Below, piece after piece: positions 902 through 62,400 of a stretch of DNA of 64,000 nucleotides. The stretch spans positions 102,610,001-102,674,000 of the forward strand of contig JAGIQG010000009.1 in assembly GCA_024679065.1 (NCBI GenBank), in the 5' to 3' direction. A program made the position numbers and the translations under genes. How positions within the stretch are numbered: position 1 is the first letter of the stretch; each line of letters begins with the position of its first letter. The stretch is from Sphyrna mokarran (Eukaryota). The notes below the pieces were generated by a model. It did not search any database. It saw only the letters and a list, made by a program, of their open reading frames with translations, and was not told the origin of the DNA.

Positions 902-968
902 ATGGAGCAGTTATTCCGTCTCCTGTTGCTGCCTGTCCTCTTCCAACTCCGGGCCGGCGGTGCAGAAG
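902..968 (+). CDS. Ig-5TM gene exon 1: signal peptide MEQLFRLLLLPVLFQLRAGGAE
   Basis: ATG in good context (GGGATGG), hydrophobic core, and a phase-1 donor (AAG|GT at 969) that joins the IgV exon in frame. Confidence 0.8.
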
Positions 969-1125
969 GTGGGGGGGGAGGGGGTAAGGGGGGGGAGGGT
1001 AGGGGGGGGGAGGGGGTGAGGGGGTGAGGAGGGGGAGGGGGAGGGGGGTAAGGAGGGGGAGGGGAGGAGCGGGAGGGGAGATGAGGAAGGAGGAGGGAGG
1101 AGGGAGGGAGGGGGTGAGGGGTGAA
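969..1125 (+). repeat. G-rich low-complexity tract with G-quadruplex potential at the start of intron 1
   Basis: Dense G3-G8 runs separated by A/T. Confidence 0.75.
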
Positions 1126-1304
1126 ACAAGGAGAGAAGCAAGTCCCCAGCAACGGGGAATGAATGGGAGCCGACTCAATGAATTGGTCAAATCCCCTCTA
1201 CCCCTGTACAGGGATATACCGGAGTCACTGCACTCTGCAAATGGCGCTTTTTTTTCATTGCTCAGACTCAGCTTCACGTTCCTTCACTGAATTATCTCTG
1301 AAAA

Positions 1305-1560
1305 GGGCGGCACGGTGGTTAACAGTACTGCCTCTCAGCACCGGGGACCTTGGGTCCCATTCCTGCCTGCGGTGAAGCCTGTCTGTGTGGAGCTTGCACA
1401 TTCTCCCCGTGTCTGCGTGGGTTTCCTCCCGCACTCCAGAGATGTGCGGGTTAGGTGGATTGGCCATGTGAAATTAGTCCCGAGGTTGGGGGATTAGCAG
1501 GGTAAATGAGCATAGGGCCTGGGTGGGATAGTGTTCGTGCAGATTCAATGGGCTGAAACC
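1305..1560 (+). mobile_element. HE1/V-SINE-type tRNA-derived SINE (representative of the CR1-tailed subfamily)
   Basis: tRNA-like head and V-domain GTCTGTGTGGAG..TGCACATTCTCCCCGTGTCTGCGTGGGTTTCCTCC. Similar copies lie at ~6913-7712(-), 8345-8640(-), 9875-10312(-), 14535-14828(-), 29865-30186(+), 35300-35605(+), 39575-39865(-), 43322-43635(-), 45525-45805(-) and 48452-48725(+). Confidence 0.85.
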
Positions 1561-1569
1561 CTGCCCAAC

Positions 1570-2130
1570 CACTTTTCCCCATTCCCTCCCACAGCCTCTT
1601 TGCCCTCTTCCTCCCCCAGCCTTTATGCCCCCTTCCGTCCCTCCAGCATATTTGCCCCCTCCCTCCAGCATATTTGTCGCCTCCAGCCTCTCTGCCCACC
1701 CCCCTCCCCCGCTGGCCTCTCTGCCCAGCCCCCTCCTCCGCCAGCCTCCCCCACCGGTCTCTTCTGCCCTCCCCTCCCCTGGCCTCTTCTGCCCTCCGGC
1801 CTGTTTGCATCATCCCCTTTGCCCCTGTCTTCCCCTCACAGCCTTTTTGTCCTCATTCATTCCCCCCACCCCCATACCCCCCCCCCCATACCCACACCTT
1901 TTCTCCCTGACCTTTTCTCACCAGCTCTCTCCCAGGTGGATTCTTTGCCTCCTTGTCCTCACCCATCTCCCCCTGTACCCACACCTTTTCTCCCTGACCT
2001 TTTCTCACCGTCTCTCTCCCGGGTGGGCTCTTTGCCTCTGCCCCCTTTTCCCCACCTTGTGTCTTTGCTCCCCCACCTCCTTTCCCTTTGAGCTCTTTCT
2101 CTCTCCCTCTCCCCTCCTGTTTCCCTTCAG
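1570..2130 (+). repeat. C/T-rich low-complexity tract with an internal ~35-bp direct repeat
   Basis: Polypyrimidine tract; TACCCACACCTTTTCTCCCTGACCTTTTCTCACC occurs at ~1889 and ~1976. Confidence 0.7.
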
Positions 2131-2522
2131 GCTCTTTAAACCCATCCTGCCTGCCACTTGCACTACACTCAGGTCAATTCATACACTGCTGCTCCCCCCA
2201 AGGGAGTGCTGCGCAGTCAGAAGCCTTGTCTTTCGGGTGAGGTTGAAGAGTGTAGGAATTGTCCCCAGTGTTGTTAGCAGATATCAATCCCTCAAATCAA
2301 CACACCAAAAAAAAGCCCAGAAGTTTCCGGCTGGTAACCCTGCTGTCGTGAACGGAGATTTGGCTGAGGGTCAAATTTTCCATCCTCACTTGCAGCGGTG
2401 ACTGGCCATGAATGGCTTGTTGTTGTCACACTGCGGAATCAAGGTGTGCACAAACTGACAGTCATATTTTCTACATTAGGGCAGTGACTGTCCTTCGTTG
2501 TGTCCTTTCATGGGGCTATTTA

Positions 2523-5500
2523 AATACACTCGGAACGAGTGCCTAGTTCGAGTCTTTACGTCGCTCGTCGACGTTTTTGTCAACCTCTAGCGAAACCCCA
2601 GTCAGGGGGGCTCACTTGATCTTGATTGAGGTACGTGTGTTGGAGTCACCTCTAAGATGTTACTAGCTAGAGAACGTGAGTTGGGTTCACAGCTAAGGTG
2701 TTATAGCTAGGTCGTGTTGTCATCCCAGGTGTGTATGGGCTTACTGGTGAGCCAATTTTGTCGGTCCTTGGTACTCGGGTCTCTGTACCCGCATGCATGG
2801 GGTGTCAATTTAGAGGGAATCAGGCCGAATTAAGGGGGTTCATTTCATTGACACTTTAGTTTCGCCAATCAGCCTGTTATAGCACGTTTTTGGCCATGTG
2901 GGAGGAAACCGGAGTGCCCGGGGAAAACCCACGCAAGCACAGGGAGAATGTGCAAACTCCCGCAGACATTGACCTTGGCCGGTAATCCGCCCTTGATCTC
3001 TGTAACTGCCCAGCCGACAGTGCTAGTCACCGGGCTGACGTGCTGCCCAAAGTCAGTCCATGTCAGCTCACACTACCGGCAGTGAAGTTCTGGATCACTC
3101 TCAGATCTCCACCCAAGAACCATCCATGCACCACCCGCCGAGTGCATGCCCCTTGTCATAGACAAGGTGGACTGTGACACCTGTAGGTGTAATAGGTGTT
3201 AGTATACATATTTACACATCACACGCTGTACAGTATATACAAACACACAGTCCGACAAACACCAAAGAGTCCTCCATATTGACATATGGGCTCTGCAGAG
3301 GGCAGTTTGCCATGATGTCTGACAAGTGGCCAGCTTGTCCTCCGGTTGTGATTGCCTCTCACCTGTCGTTGAAGATCCCCAATATCTCCAACGTGAGTGA
3401 CAAGGTGAGCCTTGAAATTTGTTGGGCGAATGAACGGAATCTCTTTATTCCCAGGAAGGCCATGAGGCTGTTATTCTTTTCCAACCATTTGCTCCTGGCG
3501 CCAACAACAAATCCAAAGTATTTGGGGTTCGGGCATCCCGTCAATTCCTCAATTTCTGGTCCCAGATGTTGGTACTTCTGGCACTTTTCCTGCCACGCCT
3601 TCTCCAGACTGTCATAGTTGTCCTCAAACCGGACTGTCACATCCACCACCGCTACCTGCTGGTCCTTTTCCCTCTTGAAGACGATGTCCGGCTTCCAGAG
3701 GCTGCCGTCCTTGGCAATGAGCCTTGGCTCCAGGTATGATGTCCAGCCGTATTTTCCGACATACTTATGCAGTTGGTCCAGGATCTTATTATGGCGTTTG
3801 ATCCGGCAGTTTTTCACGAATGGGCAAAAGCCTGAAATGTGACCGAGTGTTTCAAGACCTGTCCCACACCTTCGACAGGTCTTTGTGGCAGAGGGGTTCC
3901 CTCTCGACAGGGTCACCCTCGTCGGGTATAGGTTGCACCGGAGTAGCATGTTATTTACCAGGCGATGGGACTTCAGCTGGTATGCAGCCTTCATCCAACT
4001 GTTTGAAATTCTGTCATCGTGGTAGTAGTGAACTCCCACTCCTTGTGATGTGAGCTGTCTCCACTTGTGGAATTCCCATTCCCTCCACCCAGCATATCTA
4101 TTCAGTGGTTTGCTGGGTCCTGTCTCCTCGGCCGCCAGTGTCGGCAGTGCGGCTCTGATCATGGCTGTTTCGTCATTGCCACCGTCTTCCCTTGTAGGCA
4201 TGAAGTCTTCGATGTCCCTCAAAGCCTTGAGGGATCTCAGATCTTCGATGTTTCTGCCAACGTCCTGTTCACAGAACTGGAATGAGGCGCGAATGACTTG
4301 ATCTGTGGAGGCAGACAGTGCTTCCCATTTTCGGATCACCGCAGATGGTATCTGGATCTCGAGCTTAGGAATGCCCAGACCTCCATTTCGCGCCCGCGAA
4401 TAGAGGATTCCATCTGTAGTATGAGGTGGAAGGTGCAGGAACTGCTTGACAGCATTGCATATTAATTGGTCCAGTTTTACCAGCGTGTTCTGTGACGCTC
4501 CAGTTAGGATCAGGTGATAGTACAGCCTTGGTATGACATGGACAGTTAGCAGCTCGACGCGTTGCCTTGGGCGAAGAGCTGCTGCTTGTAGACTGGAGAT
4601 CCAAGTCTTCAGCCTGTCCTCCCATGCTCCTTCTTCCACACCAGCCCACGGGTCTATCCGGGCTCCCAGTTATTTCTCTGTCTCACCTGGTGGGATGTAT
4701 GCAATCTCTTCCTTCTGAATCCTCCAGTTTTTGCATTGATTATAAATAAAGGTCTTCCTCTTACAGGTGAAGTGGAATCCTTTGGTCTTGTTGATGTTGA
4801 CAGTAAGACCAGTCATTTCGCAAAAAGTCTGAAGAACCTTCAGGTTCCGTACCATCCCGGTGTGCGAGTCACTGAGCAGGGCAATGTCATCAGCAAACGC
4901 AAGGGCGGAGCAGTTGATTCTCACTCCATCTAGCATCATACTGACACCAGACTTAGCCGCTTCCAGACTGCACAGCAGTGGATCCAAAGCAATATTGAAT
5001 AGTACCGGTGAGAGCGGGTCTCCTTGCTTGACACCCCTCTCGATTGTTATTGGGGTGGTTTTCGACTTGTCGCCTTCCACCACCGTTGTGTTGCCAGTGT
5101 AGAGATTCTGAATGAGCTCCACAAAGGCGTCTGGTAGTTTGACTCTCTGTAATGCTTTAAAGAGTAGTTTGTGACCAACTGAGTCGAACGCTTTCGCCAA
5201 ATCAACAAAGACGACTGCGAGGTCCTTGTGGTTTTTCTTAGCTCCCTTCATTATATTTTGCAACACTGCAATGTTCTCATTGCACCCGGAGTAGCTGCCA
5301 AAAACCCTTTCTGCCTTGGGTTTATGTCGACTGTCTCACTCAGTCGTTTCGCCATGATCTTTGTAAATAGGCGCAGCAGCATTGGACCGATGGTAATTGG
5401 TCGCCAGTTGTCAATATTTTTAAGGCGTTCCCTGTCCTCGCATTTTGGGATCAGGACCGTTCGACTCTGTTTCATACAGAGAGGGATCGTCTTTGAAGCC

Positions 5501-6886
5501 AACCACAAGGAGAAGAGACGAGGTATGCGGGTTTCGTAGGCCTCGTGTATCTTCCGGATGTCCTCCAATTTCTGCCCATCCGGTCCAGGCGCGCTATCCT
5601 CCTTTATGCCCTTGATGGCCTGGGTAACCTCCTCTTCGGTGATTGGCTTCATCAACTCACCGTTATCTGTATTCCCATTGTACGCTTGGAATTTATTGAT
5701 ATTTGCCTTATTGTTCTGACTGGAGAGTTTCTCCCGAAAGCTTGCCTCCAGTTCCTCAGTCGTAAGTGGACATTTCATTTGTGTAGGCGCGCCCATGATC
5801 TGCCGGGCTAGTTGACGCCTATTGTTCTTGTAGAGCATCTGTGTTGCTCTAAAGACGGATTTCTGTTTTGCCCATCGTTTCTTTGCTCCACTATTAACCT
5901 CGTGCCGAGGCCCTCGGTTAACTTTCTTTCGTGCCTTCTCTTTCGGACAAGCCTTCTTTTGCCCTTTTCCATCACCTCTCATCAGAAGGTCAGTGATGCT
6001 CTCGATTAAACCCACTGCCAGGGTTAGATCTTCAGGGTCGTTCCTCGCAGATAATAGCCTCTCGATTTGGCTGAGATTCTCCTCCACATCCCTATGCTTA
6101 GGGACATGTGCCATAGGCTGACTGATGGAACTTACCTGCGGTACCAGATCTCTGACATCTCCCTCTTCAGGCTCCTGTTCTCTCTCAGAGTCTGGGTTCT
6201 CAGCCACAACTGGGAGTGCGTTGTTTGCTGATTTGCGCGCATTTGCCAGCAGCCTGCGCTTTTCAGAGATTTGTTTGGCCGTTTTAGTTGTTAAAATACT
6301 CCCAATCTCTTTATTGATGTACCGGGCACCAACAAATCTCTGTTCAAGCTCCACGAGGAGCGATTCCTCCTCCTCGGACCATACGCTCTTACTTCTACCT
6401 CGTTTGGCTGGGGGCTTAGGTAGTGCCTTTTCCGCACGTTTTTCATTGCGGAGGACCGGGTGACGGTGTCGCTCATGCTGGCTGAGTCCACTTTCTGTAG
6501 TGAAGGCCAACTCACATGCACTGCACTTGTATTGACCCACTGCCAGAGGCTTCACGCCCTGACATTTTGGGTAGTGGCAGGCAATTGAGTGGTACTCACC
6601 AGTCCTCCCGCACCGAGCACACTTAGTCACGATCTTCTTGGTCCTGTGCACTTTCTTGAGATGGTCTCTGAAAGCCCCAACCGAGGAGTGTATGGACTTG
6701 CAAGGCTTGCAATACAACGCATCAGTAGGGTAATGGATCACCACCTCCTTAACCTCTGAGCGGTCCTCTGTAGATGTTATTGTAATTGTCTCGATGAAGG
6801 TGCCCTCCTCCTGAGCACCTCCATCGCTTGCGGTATTTTGGCTGTTATCATTATTTCCCAAGCCCTTATTCAGGGCTAAATATGCC
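2523..6886 (-). mobile_element. R2-clade non-LTR retrotransposon, 5'-truncated, inserted outside rDNA
   Basis: Single ORF (3359-6886) broken by one frameshift (~5280) and one in-frame stop (4670, KYLG to K*LG). It encodes three N-terminal zinc fingers, a Myb domain (WSEEEESLL..KTAKQISEKRR), RT (GVKQGDPLSP, LAFADD), a CCHC knuckle and a restriction-like endonuclease (RHN, KPDIV, VDVTVRFE, KCQKY). It has an ~835-nt 3' UTR and a candidate 5-bp TSD ATTTA at 2518-2522 and 6887-6891. Confidence 0.9.
2850..3215 (-). ncRNA. Structured 3' UTR cassette in the R2 element: TACTAAC branch point, CTACAG|G acceptor, multi-stem RNA and degenerate tRNA-head/V-SINE domain
   Basis: Colinear similarity and compensatory base changes relative to 26410-26770 and 55550-55880. 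Confidence 0.6.
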
Positions 6887-7351
6887 ATTTAGAGCTTGGG
6901 GTGTACTGAGTTCATAGAATCCCTACAGTGAAAGAGGAGGCCGTTTGGCCCATCAACCCCGCACCAACAACAATCCCATCCAGGCCTTACCCTGTAACCC
7001 CATGTATTTACCCTAGCTAGTTCTGCTGACACTAAGGGGCAATTTAGTTTGGCCAATCACCGTAACTGCCTCATCTTGGGGCACTAAGGAGCAACTTAGC
7101 ACGGGCAATCCACCTAACCCGCACATCTTTGGAGTGATGTGGAGGTGCCAGCATTGGACTGGCACAGTAAAAATTCACACAATACCTGTCCAACAGGTTT
7201 ATTTGATATCACAGGCTTTCGGAGGCTACTCCATTAGAGAGTGGAGAGTTGGGTTCACAAGCATGGCATATATACACAGAGACTCAATTGCAAGATAATG
7301 ATTAGAATGTGAGTCTTTTCAGATAATCAAGTCTTTGGAGTGTGGGAGGAG

Positions 7352-7573
7352 TGATGTGGAGATGCTGGCCTTGGACTGGGGTAAACACAGTAAGAAGTCT
7401 CAGCACACCAGGTTAAAGTCCAACCAGTTTATTTGATAGTAAACTCACAAGCTTTCAGGATTTGCCCCTTCATCAGGTGAGTGGAGAGCTCTTGTCTCAA
7501 TCAGAGCATATCATATCACTATCAAATAAACTGGTTGGACTTTAACCTAGTGTTGTGAGACTTCTTACTGTGT
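7352..7573 (-). mobile_element. Short inverted Penelope-like pLTR relic with a minimal hammerhead ribozyme (7443-7482); a related fragment lies at ~7135-7335
   Basis: Minus strand reads ACTCAC-CTGATGA-AGGGGCAAATCCT-GAAA-GCTT-GTGAGT; inverted arm at ~7515-7573; resembles the 19-21 kb PLE end; nested in an HE1 SINE. Confidence 0.7.
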
Positions 7574-7951
7574 GTGAGGAAATAGAGAACATGAAGAAAA
7601 TCCATACAAACAAGGGGAGAACATGTAGACTCAAGATGGACAGTCATCAGAGACTGGGATTGAACCTAGGTCTCTGACGCTGTGAGACAGCAGTGCTCAC
7701 CATTGTGCCACCCAAGCGGGGGGTCTGTCTTTCCAACTTTCTTCCATACTCGGCAGATCAGGCAGCATCTGTGGAGAGAAACAGAGATTCAGGTTGGGAT
7801 GGCCTTTCATCAGAATGGAAGGAAGGTAGAAATATCAGAGTTTATAAGCAAGAGGAGGTGGGGAGCTGGGGGGGAGAATAAAAGTACATTCAATATCAGT
7901 GTTTCACTGTCACACTTCGAGAGATTACATTTGCTGTTTTATGTTATTCAG

Positions 7952-8257
7952 CCGGAGGAAGAGAAGTATTTGGTGTCCATGGTTGCTCGGTTTTACTGGA
8001 TCCAAAATATGAAGCCAATCTCAGTGAGAGTGAAGTTATGTGGACATTCATCGGCAGCAATGGGAACCTGGTTACCATTTTGGATTACGTACCAAATCAC
8101 CCAATGGAGGAACCAAATAAGCACTTCAAATCTCGCTTACAATTCAGTTCATCCAATGGAGCGCTGACGTTAAATGATTTAAACTCCGGTGACCAAGGGG
8201 TTTATCGCATGACTGTCGATGACAAATTACAATGGAATGCATCTCTGAAACTCATTG
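7952..8257 (+). CDS. Ig-5TM gene exon 2: V-set Ig domain of CD2/SLAM/CEACAM type (no canonical B-F disulfide)
   Basis: TTCAG| acceptor and G|GTGAGT donor, phase 1-1; AGGREVFGVHGCSVLLDP..VMWTF..FKSRLQFSSSNGALTLNDLNSGDQGVYRMTV. Confidence 0.9.
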
Positions 8258-8691
8258 GTGAGTTGTTTGGAAATTCTCAGTTTCAAAGTGTTGCCACTCA
8301 GACAACAAAAAAGTTAATTTCCATTCACTCCACATTCAGGCCTATCATAGAATCCCTACAGTGCAGAAGGAGGCTATTTGGTCCATCAAGTCTGCACAAT
8401 CCCATTTACGTGCCCTATTCACGTAACCTCACACATTTACCCTGCTCGTCTCCCTGATACAGATCAGCCTAACCCACACGTCTTTTGGGCTGTGGGAGAA
8501 AACCTGATCACCCGGAGGAAACCCACGCAGACACAGAGAGAATGTGCAGACTCCACGCAGATAGTGACCCAAGGCTGAAATTGAACTTGGGACCCTGGCG
8601 CTGTAGGTAGCAGTGCTAATGGCTGTGCCACCATACCACCCACAATTCCCTGGGCTCATTTGGGATTTGAACCCAGGACCTCTTGGCATTC

Positions 8692-12943: not shown

Positions 12944-13213
12944 AAGTACTTCCTGAACCTTCAATTGTTGGCAATTCCACCTGCATGGATACCACTATTG
13001 AATTGACCTGTCGAGTATCTGCAGGGACAGCGAGCTCCACTCTCTGGTGGAAAGATGATGAAATGATAACAGATGGCCAACATTATCAACTAATGAAAAA
13101 CAACAGCACATTGATTATTCCCAGAGCCATCAAGTCAAATTGCGGGAATTATACTTGCATCGTGGAGAACCCTGTTAGCAAGAGGACCAAGTCATACGCT
13201 CTTACTATTCACG
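12944..13213 (+). CDS. Ig-5TM gene exon 3: C2-set Ig domain
   Basis: TTTTCAG| acceptor and G|GTGAGT donor, phase 1-1; EVLPEPSIVGNSTCMDTTIELTC..WWKD..NNSTLII..CGNYTCIVENPVS. Confidence 0.92.
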
Positions 13214-13304
13214 GTGAGTCAAGCCAGGTACTTAGTTGCAAGAACAGGAATTGTTGGATGATATCAGCAGGTCTGGCAATATCTAAGGAGAGAAAAAAAT
13301 ATAG

Positions 13305-15721: not shown

Positions 15722-18700
15722 GTAAGAGAAATTGTTCTTTGTCCAGTTTTGTATTAAAAAAGTTAAATCTTATTAGAAATCCTGTGAAATCTTTAAGTAT
15801 TAAATTTTGGACCTCGAGTTTCAGCATCATTACTTTAATTGTGTGAATAATTTCTGCTCCAGTATTAAAAAGAACAAAGAAAGGTACAGCTCAGGAACAG
15901 GCCTTTTGGTCCTCCAAGCCCTTTCTCTTATGATGCCGTAACCAAACTAAAAAAGAAACCTTCTGCCCTTAGTCCGTATCTCTCTATTCCCTTCCTATTT
16001 GTGTATGGGGAGTCAGGGAACATGCCGTGTCCTTTCAGGGTGCTTTGTCCCCACCTGACGCTCAGCTCTCACCCGTGGCTCCCCGTAGCTGTTTGCATGT
16101 GACAGCGGCCACACCCTGGGCAATGGCCCCGACAATTTGGCTGAACCAGGTGAGGGTAGCCGACTTGTCTCAACCCTCGGTGAGGTAGGGGGATGTCTAT
16201 CCCAGCGTGTGAAGACAGACTCCGGCAGATTGAGCAGATGAGACCGATGGAAGGTCCAACGATCAAGAAGGTGGTCTCTGCAATCGTTGTGGAACTCTAA
16301 GAGCAGGCCAAGATACGGAAGACATCCTGGTCACCCACTGCGCCTAGTCTCACCTCCAGCCATCTTGACTCTTGTCTTGCCACTGGATCTAGGTGAGAAT
16401 TGGGAAGAGAGAGTGACGCTGGGCAACTCTCCCTCACTTTAATCCAAATCAAGCACTAGTTTCAACACCATCACCATCATCTTCAGTTCAACCCTTGAAG
16501 TCCTGTGGTGATGGGCGAGTGATGAAGCAGCAGGTATGGATACACTGGGAGCTGTAGTCACCAACCTGCACACAGACAGATCAGATCCAACGGCTGTTTC
16601 TCGCTGAGTGAAGCAGCAGTGGAACTCGGCATCAACCTGGGCGACTGAGCAGTTCCTCTTCAGGAACGCACTGCTCACCTCCATAGAATGAGGAAGGGAC
16701 TAGAAAAGGTACCTTAAACATTGCCTGCTTCACTACACTCCGGCCACTTTACCGCGGCTGGTGGGGATCCCATCTTGTGCTTGAACAAACAAAATAAAAC
16801 ACAAGGTTGACACCATTCGCCAGTGGCACTTGGAACGTGCACACGCTTTTGGATAACCCTACAGCAGACAGACCAGAGAGAAAAACAGTTGCCAGAGAGC
16901 TTGTAAGATACAACATTGACATTGCAGCCCTGAGTGAAACTCGTCTTGCCGACGTTGACTGAAACTGGAGGTGGATACACTTTTTCCTGGAGCGGTCATG
17001 GCAGCGATGAGCGTCGTGATGCTGGAATTGAATTCGCTGTCAGGAGTCACCTTGTTTGGAAACTTGACAGTTTACCCAAGGGTGTGAACGACCGGCTTAT
17101 GACATTACAGCTCCTCCTACAGAACAGAAGTCAAGCCACCCTGATCAGCACCTACGCCCCCACAATGAAGAACCGGACGAGATGAAAGACAAGTTCTACG
17201 AAGAACTAGACACCCTTTTATCGCAATGAGCAATACCGACAAGCTGATCTTGCTTGGCGATTTCACTGCAAGAGTGGAGTGTGACTCTGCAATCTGACAG
17301 GGAGTCGCTGGGAGGCATGGAGTGGAAAAGTGTAACAGTAACGGCCTATTCTTACTGAAGACCTGTGCACACACAACCTCCTCATCACCAACACAACCTT
17401 CTATCTGCCTATCCGTAACAAGACCTCCTGAATGCACCCCCCACGCTCTAAGCATCGGCATTTATCGACTATATCATTGTCAGGAGAAAAGACAGGCAGG
17501 ATGTCAGAGAGACCAAGGCCATGTGTGGTGCTGACCGCTGGACAAATCACAGCCTCATCGTATGCAAAATGAGGCTCCGCATCAGACCCAAGAGGCGACC
17601 ACAAGGAAGCAAGGTTATGAAAAGAATCAACGCGGCCAAGCTAAAGAACCCCAGCATAACTTCAGCACTGACTGAAAACTTAGAAATCAAGCTTGCTGAC
17701 CTACACCTCGCAGGCAGCACTGAGGATGACTGGGAATGCTTCAGTCATCTGACTGAAGATGCTCGAGCCCTCCATCCGCAAGCAGCAATGATTGGTTCGA
17801 TGAGAATGATGAGGAGATAAAGTTGAACTTGTTGAAAAGCACCGTCTGCATTGGGCCTGTCAGAACGACCCATCTTCAGCTGCTAAAAAAAATGCTTTTA
17901 CCAGTGCTCGCAGGACAGTCCAGAATCAACTGTGTAAAATGCAGGATGCCTGGCTGAGCACCAAAGCAGATGAAATACAGGGATACGCAGATGGAAACTA
18001 CTTGAAATGGATCTGTGACGCCCTCAACACTCTCTACGGATCTCAATCTCTCGGGAGTTCACCCCTCCTGAATACAGATGGTACTAGTCTCATTCCAGAG
18101 AAGGCTCAGATCCTGCAGAGATGGGCTGAACACTTTGAAACTATCCTCAACCAACTGTCATCTATTAACGATGAGGGAATAGAGAGGATTTCCCAGACTG
18201 ATATCAACAGCACCATGGATGACCCGACAGTAGTAGCCGAAGTCACAAAAGCTATCAGCTAGCTATCCAGTGGCAAAGCCCCACGGGCAGGTACCATACC
18301 CGCAGAGATCCATAAAGCTGCTGGTCCTGTACTTATCGAGAAGCTCACCAAGTTGTCCCAGACCTTTTGGAAGCAAGGATTCATTCCTCAGGAATTTAAA
18401 GATGCTTCCATCGTACACCTCTACAAGAGGAAGGGCAATCGGCAAATATGCAACAACCAGTGAGGAATCTCGCTGCTCTCCATCACAGGAAAAACCCATG
18501 CAAGAGTCCGCTAAATTATCTGGTCACTCATCTGGAGCTGGGCCTGCTTCCAGAGTCACAGGGTAGCTTCTGCAAAGGTCGTGGGACTATTGACATGATT
18601 TTTGCTGTGCATCAACTTCAAGAGAAGTGTCAGGAGCAGAATTGTGAGCTCTAAACAACCTTTGTTGACCTCACGAAAGCCTTTGATATCATAAGCTAAC

Positions 18701-41060: not shown

Positions 41061-44000
41061 AATCTTTGCCAATAATACCCATGTCTCAAAAGAATGAAGG
41101 AAAAAACCTCCAAGTCAGGAAGTTTCTTGTTCATGTTCACCTCCAGGAGCTTGGCATCAAATCTAGGCTGACACATCAGTGAAATATTTAGGGAGTGCTG
41201 CACTGCCAGAGATGCGACTTCTAGATAGAGTATAAACCAATTAAATTGATTTGATTCGATGTATTATTATCACGCCTTTTGGGATAGTGAAAAGTTTTGT
41301 TTCTTGTGAGTTATCAGAGACAAAACAGTCATAGAGTACATAGAGAAGAAGGAAAGGATAGAATGTAGAATGTAATGTTGGATTTACCAATAGGGTAAAG
41401 AGAAAGATCAGCATAATATAGGTAAGACCATTCAAAATTCTGATGGCAGCAGGAAAGAAGCTGCTCTAAGTCAGATGGTTCATGACCTCAGATTTTTGTA
41501 CATTTTTCCCGATGGAAGAAGGTAGAAGAGAGTTTGTCCAGGGTGCGTGGGGTCCTTGATAATGTTGGTTGCTTTTATGAGGTAGCGGAAAATGTAGATG
41601 GAGTTAATAGTTAGGAGGCTAGTTTGCATAATGAACTGGGCTACTTTCATAACCCTTTGTAATTTTTTGTGATCTTGGGCAGAGCAAGAGTCATACCAAG
41701 CTGTGTTACATCCTGAATGGATGTTTTTGTTTATACATCTGTAAAAATTGTAGAGTCGTAGTGGACATGCTGAATTCCCTTAGCCTCCTGAGAAAATAGA
41801 GGCGTTAATGGGCCCCAAGACACCATCTGTCTTTTCACATGGACCTAACAGATTCAACTATTCTGCAGATGGGCTGTGAGTGCTACCAGGTTTTGTGCCA
41901 ATGATTGTCTCCCACCCAGTCTCACTGAACTGATTGTTTTGCTATTGCATCAATTCTGTGGGTGGACACTTGGTGCTATACTTCTTGCATAGATGCTATA
42001 AATTATAAAACTACCTCATTGGCAGCAAAGCACTTTGAGATGTCCTGAAGCTATGAAATCTACTTGTCATGTTTCTATATCTGTCTCTGATTTCCATGCA
42101 TCCCTGTCTCCAGAGTTGAAGGCATTCAGATTCTTGTGACTGTGGTAACGGTGGGTATTCCAAAGACTCTTTTCTCCTTTGGAATTCCTCTCCACAGTCA
42201 CAGTTGACAAATTTAATTTGGACATATCCCACGACTGCAAAAAAGGGGCTTGCAGAAGCCAACAACCATCCTGAGACACAGCCAACTAGGCCATGTTCAC
42301 TGGCTTTTTATCTGAGTCATGAGAGAAGTTGTAGTCTAGGTTGCTGTGGACCTCAGAGGGGAATTTGCAGGCGGTGGTGTTCCCATGCCCTTGCTACTTG
42401 TCTTTCTAGATGGTACAATTTGTAAGACTGGAAAACGCTGTCAAAGCAGGCTTGGTGAACTGCTGCAGTGCACTGTGTCGATGAAATATACTGCAGCAGG
42501 ATGGCAGAGTGGTTTACACTGTTGCCTCTCAGCTTCAGAGACTGGAGCTCAATTCTCCTCTTGTGTGGTTGTCTATGTGGGTCTGCACATTCTCCCAATG
42601 TCTGCATGGGTATCCTTCAGATGCTCCAGTCTCTTTCTCAGAATTAAAAGATTTGCAAGTTAGTTGGATTAACCATACTAAATTGTTCCTGCATGTTCCA
42701 AGGTGTGGAGATAAGAAGGATTAGTCAGGTAAACAAATGGGATTTAAGGGGATTGAGGGTTATAGATAGGCCTAGTAGGTAGGGATATGATCAGGCATTG
42801 TAACTGAAGAAGGAAGATCAAAGATCTTGCTCGGAATTGGAAGTTTGTGTCATGTTTGTTACCAAGACTCATGATATATAAACGCCCACTTGTGTTTGTG
42901 TTCCTTGAGAAGCCTAGCAGTCCTTGTTTGGAACCAATTTCTCCCAAAGCTCTGGAATAAAAGCCAGGGCTTTGAAATAAAAAATCACTGTATTTTGACT
43001 CACCAGCAGTCTCAGAAGTATTATTTTAACTACAACAGTGTCATTTGTAAACTTACGAACCATGCTTCCTATATTTTGCATAAAATGACAACTGTCCACC
43101 CTCATAGTCTAGGAAATCTCCGATCTTCCAAGAATTTGCACTCAGGGTGAGGCGGGTCCAAGAGGCGGAGATGGAGGCAAAATAACCTCTTTCAGGAATC
43201 AGCTCCACAATCCAGAACCCGGTCTCATGTCTCAGGGAGATAAACCCTTTCCTGTTCGCAGAACTCTCGGACCATCTCCAGAATCTATTCTGTGTTTCCC
43301 CCGCCTGCACCTTCCAGTAATCATTAAATCTTACAGTGCAGAAGGAGGCCATTTGGCCCATTGAGTCTGCACTAACCAGGATCTTGCCAAGGCCCTATTT
43401 TCGTAACCGCACACATTTATGCTCATCCCTCTGATGCCAGGCTCAATTTTTAGGATAGCCAATCAACCTAACGTGCACAACTTTGGATTATGGGAGGCAA
43501 CCAGAGCACCCAGAGGAAACACACACAGACACGGGGAGAATATGCAAACTCCACACAGACAATGCCCAAGGGCGGAATCGAACCTGGATCTCTGATGTTG
43601 TGAGGCAGCAGTGCTAACCACTGTGTCACTGTGCAGCATTCCAGACATTTCCTTTTGTTTTTCTTTTGATTTTCCTTAAAATTCTGCTTCTCTAATGTCT
43701 GTATGGCTCCCTGATGAACAATGATAATCAATGTTTCCCAGAATGACAAATGAGACCAGTCCAGTCTCCTGGAGCAATTCTACTTCTGATTCTGAGATTA
43801 GTGCTCTATTCCTCTGGTTATACCGATATCTTCGCTGCTTTGACAGATGGCGGACTTCAAACATTTACACAGAAAAACCCACAGAAAGTGAAATATGAGA
43901 GTGGAGAGAGTCCTGACAGTTAACAACCAACAATGCAAGTATTTCATTTGGGATCATGGAGCCCGTTTAGTTTATTTATAACCGGATTCATAACTAGGAA

Positions 44001-49600: not shown

Positions 49601-50902
49601 GTAAGGCAATGACTGTGAAAATCCCCCAGTTGCCACACTCTGGCGCCTGTTTGGGTACAGCGAGGGAAAATTTAGCATGGCCAATGCACTTAACCAGGAC
49701 GTCTTTTGAACTGTGGGAGGAAATCGGAGTATCTGGAGACCCAAGCAGACACGGGAAGAATGTGTAGACTCCACACAAACAGTGACCCAAGCTGGGAATC
49801 GAATCCAGATACTGGCAGCACTACTAACCAATTCATTGGTACATCACATTGCAATAAAATAATCCACTGATAAAATATGTCTTCTTCCACTTTGTAGATT
49901 TCGGCAGCTTCTTAATCGGGATGAAACAGTGCTCGCTGTGTGTTCTGATGAATCTTTACAAATCAGACAGATTCACAAAATAGCTTCAATTTTTCCTGAT
50001 GTTCCTCACAGTGACGTTCCTTCACTTTTGGATCCAAGTCTATTTTCTAAGCTTTCTTGGCCAGATTCGCGAAGGTCCGATTTCCCTTGAGGTCTCTTTG
50101 CAGACACTCCTGTCTACATTCTGAGCAGGAGTTTATCTCCTTAGTTTCCCAACACTGGGTGATACAGGAGCGGCAGAAGTTGTGTCCACAATCCAGCGTT
50201 ACCGGCTTGGTGAAGAAATCGAGGCAAATGGGGCACTCTGCCTCCTTGGTCCAACTCTCTTTGAGTTGGCTGGAAGGCATCTTCAGATTCAGTACTCCCT
50301 GATTCAAACTGCTCTCAATTTCACTGTTGCTACCGAACAGTCTTTTTCCTAAATACTCCATTATCCAATCTTGAGATTTTCACACTGAAGAAAGAAACTC
50401 AAACAATTTAAAGGATAATGAAGGGGAGAAGAGGGAAGGCAGGGGAGCAGTGGTATTGTCGCTGGACTATTAGTCAATGACGCAGGTAATGCTCTGGGTT
50501 TGTAATCAGCATGGTGGAACAGTGCTTAGCACTGCTGCCTCCCAGCACCAGGAACACGGGCTTCTTGGATTAGGTCAGTGCCTGTAAGGAGTCTACGCAT
50601 TCCCCTCATGTCTGTGTGCATTTCCTCAGGATGCTCCAGTTTCCCCCCACAGTCTGAAAGATGTGCCAAGTAGATGCATTGGCTATGCTAAATTCTCCCT
50701 CACTGTACCTGAACATGCGCTGGAGTGTGGTGACTAGGGGACTTTCTCAGTAACTTCATTGCAGTATTAATGTAAGCCTACTTGTGAAAGTAATAAATAA
50801 GTTTTAGAAAACAGCAGTGAGTTTAGACTGGACGGAAGTGCAATGAAATCTCAATCCCGCCCATCTCCTGATTTCTCTATCCCTGTCTAAATCCCATTGT
50901 CA

Positions 50903-59402: not shown

Positions 59403-62400
59403 TTGTTCCCTTGGAGCAGCACGGAGAGGCAGCGATTTGGGAAAGCGTGAAGTTCGAGTGTTAAGTACTTTTTTAACTTTTCTCTTTGTTTAAAATAGCG
59501 AGCGGGGGTAGTTTTTGCCGTTTTTATTTTAAACTAACAAGAAACCGGAAGTCGTCATTAGGAGGCTGCCGGGAGTTGTAGTTTTCTCTGTCTCTATAAA
59601 TTGGTCCAGAGAGGACCAATCCGAGAGGTTGAGGAGGATATTGGCAGGAGTGACAAAGAGATAGTCACTCCTAAAAGTGATTCGTGGGTAACTATTAGGA
59701 GGAGGGGTAAGAAGCAATTGGGTAGACAATCCCCTGGGGCTGTTCCCCTCCAAAACAAATTTTCTGTCTTGGAGGCTACAGTTGAGGAAGAATCAACTGG
59801 AGATGACCAAAGGGAGCAGGTCTCTGGGGGTGAGCCTGCTGAGAATGCTCAGGTGGGTAGGGAGAATAAGAGATTGGGCTTAGTAATTGGAGACTCCACA
59901 GTTAGAGGGACAGATAGGAGAGTAAGTAGTAATAAAAGTGACTCAGGGCTGGTGTGTTGCCTCCCAGGGGCTGGAGTCCAGGATGTCGCAGATCGGGCTT
60001 TTAAGGTTCTTAAGGGAGAGGGGAGTCAACCCCAAGTCATAGTTCATGTAGGGACACATGATATAGGAAGGACGAGGGAAGGGGATATTAAACAGAAATT
60101 TATGGAGTTGGGGTGGAAGCTTAGGGCCAAAACTGGCAGAGTGGTTATCTCTGGACTCTTGCCTGTGCCAAGGGATAGTTTAGAGAAGAAGAGAGAGAGG
60201 GAATGTTTGAACTCGTGGCTGCGGGGATGGTGCAGGAGGGAGGGGTTCAGGTTCCTGAACAATTGGGACTCCTTCTGGGATAGGTGGGACCTCTACAAGA
60301 GAGATGGTCTACACCTGAACCAGAGGGGAACTAATATCTTGGGGGGAAAATTTGCTAAGGCTATGCAGGGGGCTTTAAACTGATCCGGGGGGGGGTAGGA
60401 TCCTGAATAGTTGGGGTGCTAAGAGGGATGAGAGTAAGGGGGTCATAGAGGAAAGCTGTAAAACACAGCAGCATACGGGTGGGGTAGGGCATGGTTTGAA
60501 ATGCGTATACTTTAATGCAAGGAGTATTCGCAATAAGGGGAGGAACTTGCAGCTTGGACCAGTACCTGGAACTTCGATGTTGTGGCCATTTCAGAGACTT
60601 GGGTAGAGCAGGGACAAGAATGGATGTTGCAGGTTCCAGGGTTCAAATGCTCTAGTCGGAGTAGAGAAGGAGGTAGAAGTGGGGGAGGAGTGGCATTATT
60701 AGTCAAAGACTGTATCACAGTGACAGAGAAGAAGTTTGATGAGGACTTGTCTGTTGAGGTAGTATGGGGTGAGATTAGAAACAGGAAAGGAGAGGTCACC
60801 CTGTTGGGAGTCTTTTATAGACCTCCTAAAAGTTCTAGAGAGGTTGACGAAAGGATTGCCAAGTCAATTCTGTTCAGGAGTGAAAGTAATAGGGTAATTG
60901 TTATGGGGGACTTTAACTTTACTAATATTGATTGGAATAGCTATAGCTCTAGCTTGTTAGAGGGGTCAGTTTTTGTACAAAGTGTGCAGGAAGGTTTTTG
61001 ACTCAGTATGTAGATAGGCCAACTAGAGGTGAGGCTACATTGGATTTGGTGCTGGGCAATGAGCCAGACCAGGTGTTAGGCTTGGAAGCTGGTGAACATT
61101 TTGGTGATAGTGACCACAATTCGGTTACATTCACCTTAGTGATGGATAGGGATAGGCATGAAGCTGGAGGCAGTAGTTATAGCTGGGGGAAGGGTAATTA
61201 TGAGGCCATAAGGAGAGAATTAGGGTGCATAGGTTGGACTAAAACTACAGGGACTGGGAACATCTGAAATGTGGAGCTTATTCAAGGAGCAGCTGCTGCG
61301 AGTCCTTGATAAGTATGTCCCTGGCAGGCAAGGAGGAAATGGTCGAGTAAGAGAACCTTGGTGTACGAAAAAAGTTGATTTGCTGGTTAAAAGGAAAAAG
61401 GAGGCTTATGTCAGGATGAGGCTTGAAGGTTCGGTTAGTGCAATGGATAGCTATAGATTAGCCAGGAGGGAGCTAAAGAGTGAATTGAGGAGAGCTAAGA
61501 GAGGACACGAGAAGACTTTGGCTGATAGGATTAAGGAGAATCCAAAAGCTTTCTTTAGATATGTTAAGAATAGAAGATTGGTTAGGGCAAGATTAGGGCC
61601 AGTCATAGACAGCAGTGGGAAGTTGTGCGTGGAGCCTGAAGAGATTGGAGAGGCACTGAATAAATATTTCTCTTCGATATTCAGGCAGGGTGATGTAAAT
61701 GTAGTTATGGAGAACACTGAGGTACAGGGTAGCAAACTGGAAAGTATCGAAGTAGATAGGGAGGATGTGCTAGATATTCTCGAGGGTTTGAAGTTGGATA
61801 AGTCCCCTGGGCCGGACGGGATTTACCCTAGGATGCTCTGGGAGGCAAGAGAGGAGATTGCAGAGCCTCTGGCTCTGATCTTCAGGTCCTCGTTGGTTAC
61901 GGGTGTGGTTCGGAGGACTGGAGGATAGCGAATGTGGTCCCATTGTTTAAGAAGGGGAAGAGAGACCTTCCAGGGAATTATAGGCCAGTGAGTTTTACTT
62001 CTGTTGTGGGCAAGGTATTGGAGAGAATTATTAGGGATAGGATTTATAGTTATTTAGAGAGAAATGAATTGATTGGGGATAGTCAGCATGGTTTCGTGAA
62101 GGGTAGGTCATGCCTTACTAACCTCATTGAGTTTTTTGAGAAAGTGACCAGAGAGGTGGATGGGGGGTAAGGCGGTTGATGTAGTATATATGGACTTTAG
62201 TAAGGCGTTTGATAAGGTGGCCCATGGAAGACTTCTACAGAAAATGCAGATGTGTGGAATAGAGGGTGATTTAGCTAATTGGATAGGAATTGGCTGGCAG
62301 ATAGAAGACAGAGGGTGGTGGTTGATGGGAGATATTCATCGTGGAGTTCGGTGACAAGTGGTGTGCCTCAGGGGTCTGTTTTGGGCCCCTGCTGTTTGTA

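What the first reader, a model, noticed from the sequence alone, without database searches (positions are those of the whole stretch)
2505..6900. R2 element with three zinc fingers and Myb inserted in an intron, at a site partly resembling the 28S target
Established: R2 elements with three zinc fingers plus Myb normally insert at a fixed 28S rDNA site (..CTCTTAAGG/TAGCCAAATG..). Seen: no rDNA flanks this copy. It interrupts an old SINE/LINE-tail relic, and the reconstructed empty site on the element strand reads AAGCTCTAAATAGCCCCATG, with the 3' junction followed by TAGCC as in 28S. The ORF has only two visible lesions, so the family may be fairly young. Inference: either an off-target insertion of an rDNA-specific R2 or a vertebrate R2 lineage with relaxed specificity. 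Both are relevant to R2-based gene insertion tools. The ~835-nt 3' UTR is long because of the cargo cassette.
Basis: partly seen in the sequence, partly recalled or inferred. Interest (0 to 1): 0.75.

Follow-up and report, generated by a model that had tools for sequence, protein, structure and literature searches.

The report
Shark R2 spread beyond rDNA
This is a broken copy of an R2 jumping gene, normally confined to ribosomal RNA genes, whose family sits at dozens of ordinary chromosomal sites in this genome at loose look-alikes of the ribosomal target, likely because copies made from ribosomal-gene residents land off target, and it likely also moves a protein-less 1.6-kb partner element.

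Summary
Confirmed and extended. Window 6886-2520 (minus strand) is a 5'-truncated, doubly broken lineage-A R2 (three zinc fingers, Myb, RT, RLE) in predicted intron 1 of an Ig-superfamily gene. It is not a one-off: 75 of 76 family copies with a readable 3' end lie outside 28S, read depth suggests roughly 150 copies, and 8 of 80 fetched loci keep a ~1,350-aa open frame. Targeting is relaxed, not lost. At least 4 of 5 TAGCC bases follow 51 of 82 independent junctions (control 1.6%), the 28S -25..-19 motif is enriched upstream, and 24 of 105 insertions reuse three LINE sites. This mirrors the published R2Tg off-target logo. Full-length copies start at 28S -28, the usual ribozyme cut site, and some carry 40-370 nt of downstream 28S, pointing to rDNA-resident donors. 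A 1.6-kb ORF-less element with the same ends and targets is dispersed too. The rDNA array is not assembled, so looser enzyme versus slow accumulation of ordinary off-targets stays open. Shark R2s are published as 28S-specific, and invertebrate non-specific R2s are known. Two unchecked scan notes report similar off-target R2s in other genomes. New variant of a known kind.

The parts
2520..6886 (-). 5'-truncated R2 copy (young subfamily), lacking the first 592 nt of the 4,958-nt element
   Evidence: 99.0% to full-length copy L117 over 4,368 nt, starting at L117 element position 593
5288..6886 (-). ORF part 1: three zinc fingers, Myb, start of RT
4673..5287 (-). ORF part 2: RT core, after the 1-nt deletion at 5287
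   Evidence: RVT_1 E 3e-31; indel in reads
3359..4672 (-). premature stop (4670-4672), then thumb, CCHC and RLE endonuclease to the natural stop
2520..3358 (-). 3' UTR; its last ~70 nt are shared with the non-autonomous element
2850..3060 (-). SINE fragment fixed in the 3' UTR of young, old and older subfamilies and in the non-autonomous element
   Evidence: read depth above 4,000 at 2834-3004; boundaries approximate
2509..2519 (-). downstream target half, beginning TAGCC; 8 of 10 bases match 28S +1..+10
6887..6915 (-). upstream target half; 4 of 7 match to the 28S -25..-19 motif at near-expected spacing
2339..2417 (+). conserved core of the old repeat that the R2 interrupts
   Evidence: family not identified by any search
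902..968 (+). predicted leader exon of the host Ig-superfamily gene
   Evidence: sequence only
7951..8260 (+). predicted V-set exon of the host gene (3' end approximate)
   Evidence: PF07686 E 1.9e-6

Best explanation
The window holds a dead copy of a lineage-A R2 family that sits at many non-rDNA sites resembling the 28S target, likely produced by donors resident in 28S genes and an R2 protein that likely reads its target more loosely than avian R2 does. Steps: (1) inferred: donors are co-transcribed with 28S, a predicted HDV-like ribozyme cuts at 28S -28, and the RNA ends in a few bases of downstream 28S, occasionally 40-370; (2) inferred from R2Tg work: ZnF1 and the RT6a loop read a -25..-19 motif, the endonuclease nicks, and 4-5 bp of primer pairing selects TAGCC-like sites; (3) shown: 5' ends join with short deletions, occasional duplications or extra bases, and 37 of 66 copies are full length; (4) inferred: the same protein copies a 1.6-kb ORF-less RNA with the same two ends; (5) speculative: the altered RT6a loop of the shark sub-lineage contributes to the looser reading.
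For: Spread: 69 exact 3'-end matches, 0 for the reversed control. 75 of 76 autonomous and 29 of 29 non-autonomous 3' junctions are non-rDNA. Read depth of about 60-130 over the ORF at 0.69-fold single-copy coverage gives about 90-190 copies. Downstream logo: T 72, TAG 43, TAGC 33, and at least 4 of TAGCC 51 of 82, against 39%, 3%, 0.3% and 1.6% in matched controls; the signal fades after +6. Upstream motif: at least 6 of 7 in 7 of 72 flanks (control 1.1%, p 1.6e-5), at least 5 of 7 in 16 of 72 (7.3%, p 5e-5). Both features are those of the R2Tg off-target logo (PMC12222951 section 11). Hotspots: 16, 6 and 2 of 105 insertions at three sites of one CR1-type LINE, from both subfamilies and the partner, with different 5' junctions. 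Paralogous empty LINE copies carry the same TAG words, so they are target-derived. In a 1.15-kb LINE segment, 1 of 13 TAG-type words took 7 of 9 mapped insertions and 12 took none. rDNA donors: 20 of 47 full-length copies and 8 of 21 partner copies start exactly at 28S -28, the commonest R2 cleavage site (PMC3774820). Dispersed copies carry 128, ~80, ~40, ~40 and ~370 nt of downstream 28S (L111, L061, L062, L067, L063). A contig with the 3' part of 28S to its end begins with 15 nt of this family's 3' end (L068/L183). The partner's outer 28S tag is intact while an inner duplicate has drifted. No two copies share a downstream flank above 96.3%, and all shared flanks are LINE sites.
Against: The rDNA array is not assembled (8 hits of the downstream 28S 27-mer, none an intact uninserted site), so no full rDNA-resident donor was seen and the on-target fraction is unknown. 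The 15-nt end on the 28S contig could belong to R2 or to the partner. 43 of 72 flanks score 3 of 7 or less for the upstream motif, the position profile has no sharp peak at -20, the largest hotspot has the motif one base off, and the second hotspot matches only 3 of 7. The motif and window were chosen after I had read the R2Tg paper and looked at flanks. Private changes are depleted in replacements (0.47 and 0.71 of neutral), so there were many donors, which dispersed intact copies could also supply. L137 has a hotspot flank at 95-96% to others but an unrelated upstream flank, a possible composite copied from a dispersed donor. The Rfam HDV hit is weak (17.5 bits, E 3.2), and P2 has two mismatches in both main subfamilies. 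Published sharks with close relatives of this R2 have it inside long 28S flanks (PMC13188248 Table S2). No biochemistry was done.
Confidence: 0.55

Rival explanations
1. Ordinary fidelity, extraordinary retention: a normal 28S-specific R2 that is highly active in the germ line, whose rare off-target products pile up in a slowly turning-over genome while rDNA copies are purged.
For: The logo equals that of rare R2Tg off-targets. PMC13580325 section 7 warns that extant locations can mislead for this reason. Dispersed copies span subfamilies from 99% to 82% identity.
Against: At least 20 dispersed copies belong to one subfamily with 1.6% median pairwise distance, and the top 40 partner copies are at least 99% alike over the query, so deposition was fast. 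R2Bm non-28S insertions are described as rare (PMC10499050). ORF read depth is of the same order as the dispersed copies seen, leaving no sign of a far larger rDNA pool, although that tool drops human-like reads.
Confidence: 0.25
2. Emancipated family: dispersed full-length copies, which carry their own 28S tag and ribozyme, are released from host read-through transcripts and are now the main donors; rDNA is incidental.
For: 8 of 80 loci have stop-free frames of 1,345 aa or more (6 pass a motif filter). The tag completes P1 in dispersed copies. Purifying selection on private changes implies many donors. L137 is a candidate composite.
Against: Five dispersed copies show 28S read-through, and no unique non-rDNA flank is shared among 105 copies. 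The TAGCC consensus persists across subfamilies and the partner.
Confidence: 0.16
3. Copies spread passively by DNA duplication, or inside LINE transcripts, after one or a few off-target events.
For: 24 of 105 copies share LINE flanks at 70-96%.
Against: 81 of 105 have unrelated flanks. Hotspot copies differ in family, length and 5' junction, and 18 of 24 are colinear with the LINE upstream as well.
Confidence: 0.04

Closest known systems
Chondrichthyan lineage-A R2s of Hassan et al. 2026 (R2-1_SCa, R2-1_STig, R2-1_CMax, R2-1_SAc, R2-1_CCar; PMC13188248 Table S2) and Scyliorhinus torazame proteins P0001/P0002
   Same: Same architecture and sub-lineage: 73% and 69% RT identity to P0001/P0002; visibly alike N-terminal and RT sequences and ribozyme core in the table rows seen (by eye, cells cut at 400 characters).
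   Different: The paper defines R2 by the 28S site and, in the passages and sections I read, reports no dispersed shark copies and tests no shark protein. Hints it did not discuss: R2-1_CCar has an empty upstream-28S cell, R2-1_SCa has only ~110 nt of 28S after other sequence, and P0001/P0002 lie on 255- and 487-kb scaffolds.
R2Tg (zebra finch, PDB 9DOU) and PlaMe (turtle, PDB 9NL2)
   Same: E 2e-215 and 2.5e-212; three fingers plus Myb; their engineered off-target logo matches the natural one here.
   Different: Over 99% on target in human cells. They form a separate branch in the quick tree. The RT6a loop reads TKDS (PlaMe THDS) against KRKT here, so the aspartate reported to read position -23 aligns with a lysine (mapping by alignment).
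R2NS-1_SMed and R2NS-1_CSi (PMC5035012); BLAG elements of Blattella (PMC7650587); Porifera R2-homologues (PMC13188248)
   Same: R2-related families found outside rDNA.
   Different: Invertebrate, clades D and C or a separate clade, and described as non-specific or random. This family is vertebrate lineage A, keeps 28S-derived ends and keeps a 28S-like target.
Rare non-28S R2Bm insertions (Xiong et al. 1988, seen only as cited in PMC10499050)
   Same: Off-target site with partial target motifs at the right spacing.
   Different: Described as rare; here it is the state of 75 of 76 assembled copies.
R2 SIDEs of Drosophila (PMC3414825, abstract)
   Same: Non-autonomous element with an R2 ribozyme 5' end and an R2 3' end.
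   Different: SIDEs are rare and were found in rRNA gene loci. The shark partner is 1.6 kb, dispersed (445 candidates, 40 scored), and its interior does not match the current R2.

Membership tests
R2 clade, lineage A | Single ORF: ZnF3-2-1, Myb, RT, CCHC, RLE | tested here: met
R2 clade, lineage A | RT groups with three-finger R2s | tested here: met
   R2Tg E 2e-215 versus the 1,114-aa RT-like PDB entries 8gh6/8ibw (recalled as R2Bm) E 4e-83; quick IQ-TREE of 42 rows places it with shark and turtle proteins (SH-aLRT 93-98) beside mollusc and bird/fish R2s. The careful search did not finish, and no named R8, R9, NeSL or Utopia reference was included.
R2 clade, lineage A | 5' HDV-like ribozyme cutting in upstream 28S | tested here: inconclusive
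   Absent from the truncated window copy. In full-length copies: Rfam RF00094 17.5 bits, below gathering; P1, P1.1, P3, P4 and J4/2 present by inspection, P2 imperfect; 20 of 47 start at -28. Cleavage not testable here.
Strictly 28S-specific R2 | Copies confined to the 28S site | tested here: not met
   75 of 76 autonomous 3' junctions are non-rDNA
Strictly 28S-specific R2 | Resident copies in the rDNA array | tested here: inconclusive
   Only a 15-nt 3' end at the edge of a 28S contig and 28S read-throughs; array not assembled
R2NS (non-sequence-specific R2) | No target-sequence preference | tested here: not met
R2 SIDE (for the 1.6-kb partner) | R2-type ribozyme 5' end, R2 3' end, no ORF | tested here: met
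   Longest frame 127 aa, no tblastn match to R2 below E 4, last 71 nt 94% to R2; all ribozyme helices present, P2 6 of 6 pairs, with P2 and P4 sequences different from R2's
R2 SIDE (for the 1.6-kb partner) | Inserted at the 28S site | tested here: not met
   0 of 29; three other copies found by the 28S pattern carry 28S downstream only
R2 SIDE (for the 1.6-kb partner) | Derived by internal deletion of a full-length R2 | tested here: inconclusive
   Shares tag, SINE piece (78%) and 3' end, but not the rest, with the current R2; an older parent was not searched
R2 SIDE (for the 1.6-kb partner) | Mobilised by R2 protein in trans | not testable with these tools
   Indirect only: same 3' end, same junction logo, same LINE hotspots

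The most novel reading that the evidence does not exclude
A shark sub-lineage of lineage-A R2, marked by a rewired RT6a loop, has become a genome-wide retrotransposon with an intrinsically loosened 28S-like target. Its dispersed copies carry their own ribozyme and can act as donors, and it drives a SINE-like family of hundreds of 28S-tagged, ribozyme-headed elements: a living intermediate between site-specific R2 and generalist LINEs in a vertebrate.
Probability: 0.3. Interest if true: 0.82.

Novelty: new variant of a known kind. Interest (0 to 1): 0.62.

Why it matters
Lineage-A R2 proteins are the basis of current RNA-only gene insertion tools, and how graded their specificity can be is named as an open question in a 2026 review (PMC13580325 section 7). 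This genome offers over 100 natural germ-line insertion sites that reproduce the engineered R2Tg off-target logo. It also offers intact proteins whose target-reading loop differs, and defined LINE hotspot substrates, so the determinants of fidelity become directly testable. It suggests that surveys requiring 28S flanks miss dispersed R2s, and it adds a likely R2-dependent non-autonomous family in a vertebrate.

Tried and rejected
Chance TAGCC resemblance: rejected. TAGC copied only from the RNA: mostly rejected, because empty LINE paralogues carry the words; a few junctions (L157, L089, L154) differ from their paralogues toward TAG and may be RNA-templated, undecided. SINE piece as a later insertion in this copy: rejected, it is in all copies. 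L111 as an insertion into an old 28S pseudogene: disfavoured, since its 28S parts are nearly unchanged and end at a LINE site also used by L102/L163, but not excluded. Reconstructing the window's empty site from paralogues failed. An empty allele was not seen among the 15 joints shown (541 not shown) at about 0.7-fold per run: uninformative. The share of rDNA units carrying the element could not be measured from reads. No RNA holder was listed; run X2 is only guessed to be RNA and was not used. Rfam on five loci gave only the 28S fragment. 3' UTR end fold z -1.9, not significant; 5' 191 nt z -3.05, a nested fold that cannot show the pseudoknot. Careful tree unfinished. Pfam scans covered 235 of 244 unmasked frames of 45 aa or more (nine frames between 1454 and 2398 left out). 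Literature: searches found no report of dispersed shark R2 or of the partner. Fell et al. 2025 is not held, and Repbase/Dfam could not be checked, so either may already list them. No structure prediction was run.
Full report
The element. The minus strand of window 6886-2520 holds three long frames that together encode three zinc fingers, Myb, RT, CCHC and an RLE endonuclease. It is 99.0% identical to a 4,958-nt copy elsewhere in G000 (L117) and starts at that copy's position 593. It is therefore 5'-truncated and also carries a 1-nt deletion at 5287 and a stop at 4670-4672. It lies antisense in a predicted phase-1 first intron (969-7950) of a leader/V-set/I-set gene (no RNA evidence). That the host is a shark is inferred from the nearest proteins, from Scyliorhinus and Chiloscyllium.

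Family placement. L117's protein hits R2Tg at E 2e-215 and PlaMe at 2.5e-212. A quick ML tree of 42 RT rows (2 of 44 chosen rows dropped for short coverage; careful search unfinished) puts it in a shark group with one turtle protein. That group is sister to mollusc R2s and apart from the bird/PlaMe/fish group. No named R8, R9, NeSL or Utopia reference was in the tree. The RT6a loop differs from that of R2Tg and PlaMe in all shark rows that I aligned and in the older subfamilies.

Spread. A 241-nt 3' query gave 41 matches at 91-100% on many contigs (601 candidates, 40 scored), and an exact 3'-end pattern gave 69 with 0 in the control. I fetched 80 loci. With the window they give 76 autonomous copies with a readable 3' end, of which one (L111) is followed by 28S. 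Three runs of one other sample, each 0.69-fold single-copy coverage, give summed depth of about 60-130 across the ORF at 85% likeness, or roughly 90-190 copies (my division; human-like reads are dropped by the tool). Two main subfamilies differ by 8.5%, with 1.6% (20 copies) and 2.7% (45 copies) within. Four older copies at 79-85% are also dispersed. Of 66 copies chosen by their 3' end, 37 are full length, and 8 of 80 loci keep a stop-free frame of 1,345 aa or more.

Target. Among 105 junctions (76 R2, 29 partner) the first five flank bases match TAGCC in 95, 83, 71, 53 and 63 cases. I then collapsed three hotspots to one copy each and dropped L111 and L098. At least 4 of 5 match in 51 of 82 against 1.6% in controls treated alike, and the signal fades after +6. 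For the upstream side I dropped 14 copies with unsure or non-host 5' flanks and collapsed hotspots. The 28S -25..-19 motif then scores 6 or 7 of 7 in 7 of 72 (control 1.1%) and 5 or more in 16 of 72 (7.3%). Against this, 43 of 72 score 3 or less, there is no sharp peak at -20, and the test was framed after reading the R2Tg passages. Unknown deletions blur positions: hotspot copies lack about 0-10 upstream bases by eye, and a few copies have 19-30 bp duplications (L090, L104, L121). The two features found are the first two reported for 1,530 R2Tg off-target loci (PMC12222951 section 11). Sixteen, six and two insertions sit at three sites of one CR1-type LINE (GGAATTA|TAGGCC, CTGAAAG|TAGGCA, TCTAGG|TAGCAT), and one more at GATAAGG|TGGCCC. 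Empty paralogues show that the words belong to the target. Within 1.15 kb of that LINE, one of 13 TAG-type words took 7 of 9 mapped insertions, so more than a 5-mer is read.

Donors. Twenty of 47 full-length copies start exactly at 28S -28 and the rest within 18 nt, although their flanks are not rDNA. Position -28 is the commonest R2 ribozyme cut (PMC3774820 passages). An HDV-like core follows (Rfam 17.5 bits, E 3.2; helices by inspection, P2 with two mismatches). Of 8 genome hits to a downstream 28S 27-mer, five are dispersed elements followed by about 40-370 nt of 28S and then other DNA. One is a contig that carries 28S to its 3' end and begins with 15 nt of the family's 3' end, and two are orphan 28S pieces (for L183). 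I read these as read-through from rDNA-resident donors (inference). No two of 105 copies share a downstream flank above 96.3%, and all sharing is at LINE sites, though L137 may be a composite from a dispersed donor. Replacement changes are depleted between subfamilies (pN/pS 0.16) and among private changes (0.47 and 0.71 of neutral for 13 and 41 copies). Many donors existed, and this does not say where they were.

Partner element. A 1,610-nt element has the 28S tag, an HDV-like core with its own P2 and P4 sequences, the same SINE piece, and the last 71 nt at 94% to R2, but no frame above 127 aa and no R2 protein match. Forty scored copies are 99-100% alike over the query (445 candidates). All 29 readable junctions are non-rDNA and include the same LINE hotspots. 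A tag pattern that excludes most main-family copies gave 249 matches against 1 in the control. Of the 100 listed, 12 begin like R2 subfamilies, none like an uninserted 28S site, and most of the other 88 look like the partner by eye. Mobilisation by R2 protein is inferred.

Comparison with print. PMC13188248 (abstract, sections 10, 11, 14, passages, and Table S2/S7 rows with cells cut at 400 characters) describes shark R2s as 28S inserts and tests none. PMC5035012 (passages) reports non-specific R2 only in a planarian and a fluke. PMC7650587 (abstract) reports randomly distributed R2-like elements in cockroach, and PMC3414825 (abstract) describes SIDEs. PMC10499050 (passages) calls non-28S R2Bm insertions rare. 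PMC13580325 (passages and section 7) cautions that extant locations can mislead and that specificity is probably graded. PMC13586686 and PMC13343379 were seen as passages. Nine searches showed no paper on dispersed shark R2. Fell et al. 2025, Repbase, Dfam and the other supplements of PMC13188248 were not seen and may bear on novelty. Two unchecked scan notes describe off-target shark R2 copies in other genomes; they agree with my reading, came after it, and are not counted as support. A look-up with the partner's sequence found none.

Verdict. Real, and family-wide. By protein and ends it is a lineage-A R2. It fails the strict 28S-only test and also fails the no-preference test of R2NS. Best model: rDNA donors with a loosely reading enzyme, 0.55; accumulation of ordinary off-targets 0.25; dispersed donors 0.16; passive duplication 0.04. 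New variant of a known kind, interest 0.62.

Noticed in passing
L074 (G000:C299), L149-L178, L185: Young 1.6-kb non-autonomous element with 28S tag, HDV-like core and R2 3' end; likely hundreds of copies.
   Followed up: partly
L115 (G000:C949:10166682-10173709): Two partner elements head to tail, 85% alike, at a LINE hotspot.
   Followed up: no
L098 (G000:C772:47702147-47709306): An R2 copy followed by a repeat of its own last ~140 nt, joined at a TAG word inside the R2 3' UTR.
   Followed up: no
L064, L066: Dispersed 28S fragments of 200 nt or more that begin about 10 nt before the R2 site, with no element in front.
   Followed up: no
L063/L184 (G000:C741): Partner element plus ~370 nt of 28S embedded in a tandem satellite of ~47/94-bp period.
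   Followed up: no
L093 5' flank; L095, L149, L164: 5' junctions with duplicated element sequence or extra 28S-like pieces, suggesting template jumps.
   Followed up: no
L085, L069, L130, L083, L188: Insertions at positions that look homologous to the hotspots in other CR1-type families.
   Followed up: no
P0006, P0087: R2 ORFs of this sub-lineage inside host gene models on a 156-Mb turtle chromosome and a 1.9-Mb bamboo shark scaffold; likely dispersed copies in other species.
   Followed up: no
window 902-968, 7951-8260, ~12945-13220 (+): Ig-superfamily gene with leader, V-set and I-set exons.
   Followed up: partly
window 50050-50379 and 43056-43394 (-): RING and SPRY frames, a probable TRIM-type gene.
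   Followed up: no
window 16798-16959 and 59562-60380 (+): Endonuclease and GDSL-esterase frames, probably LINE ORF2 and ORF1 pieces.
   Followed up: no
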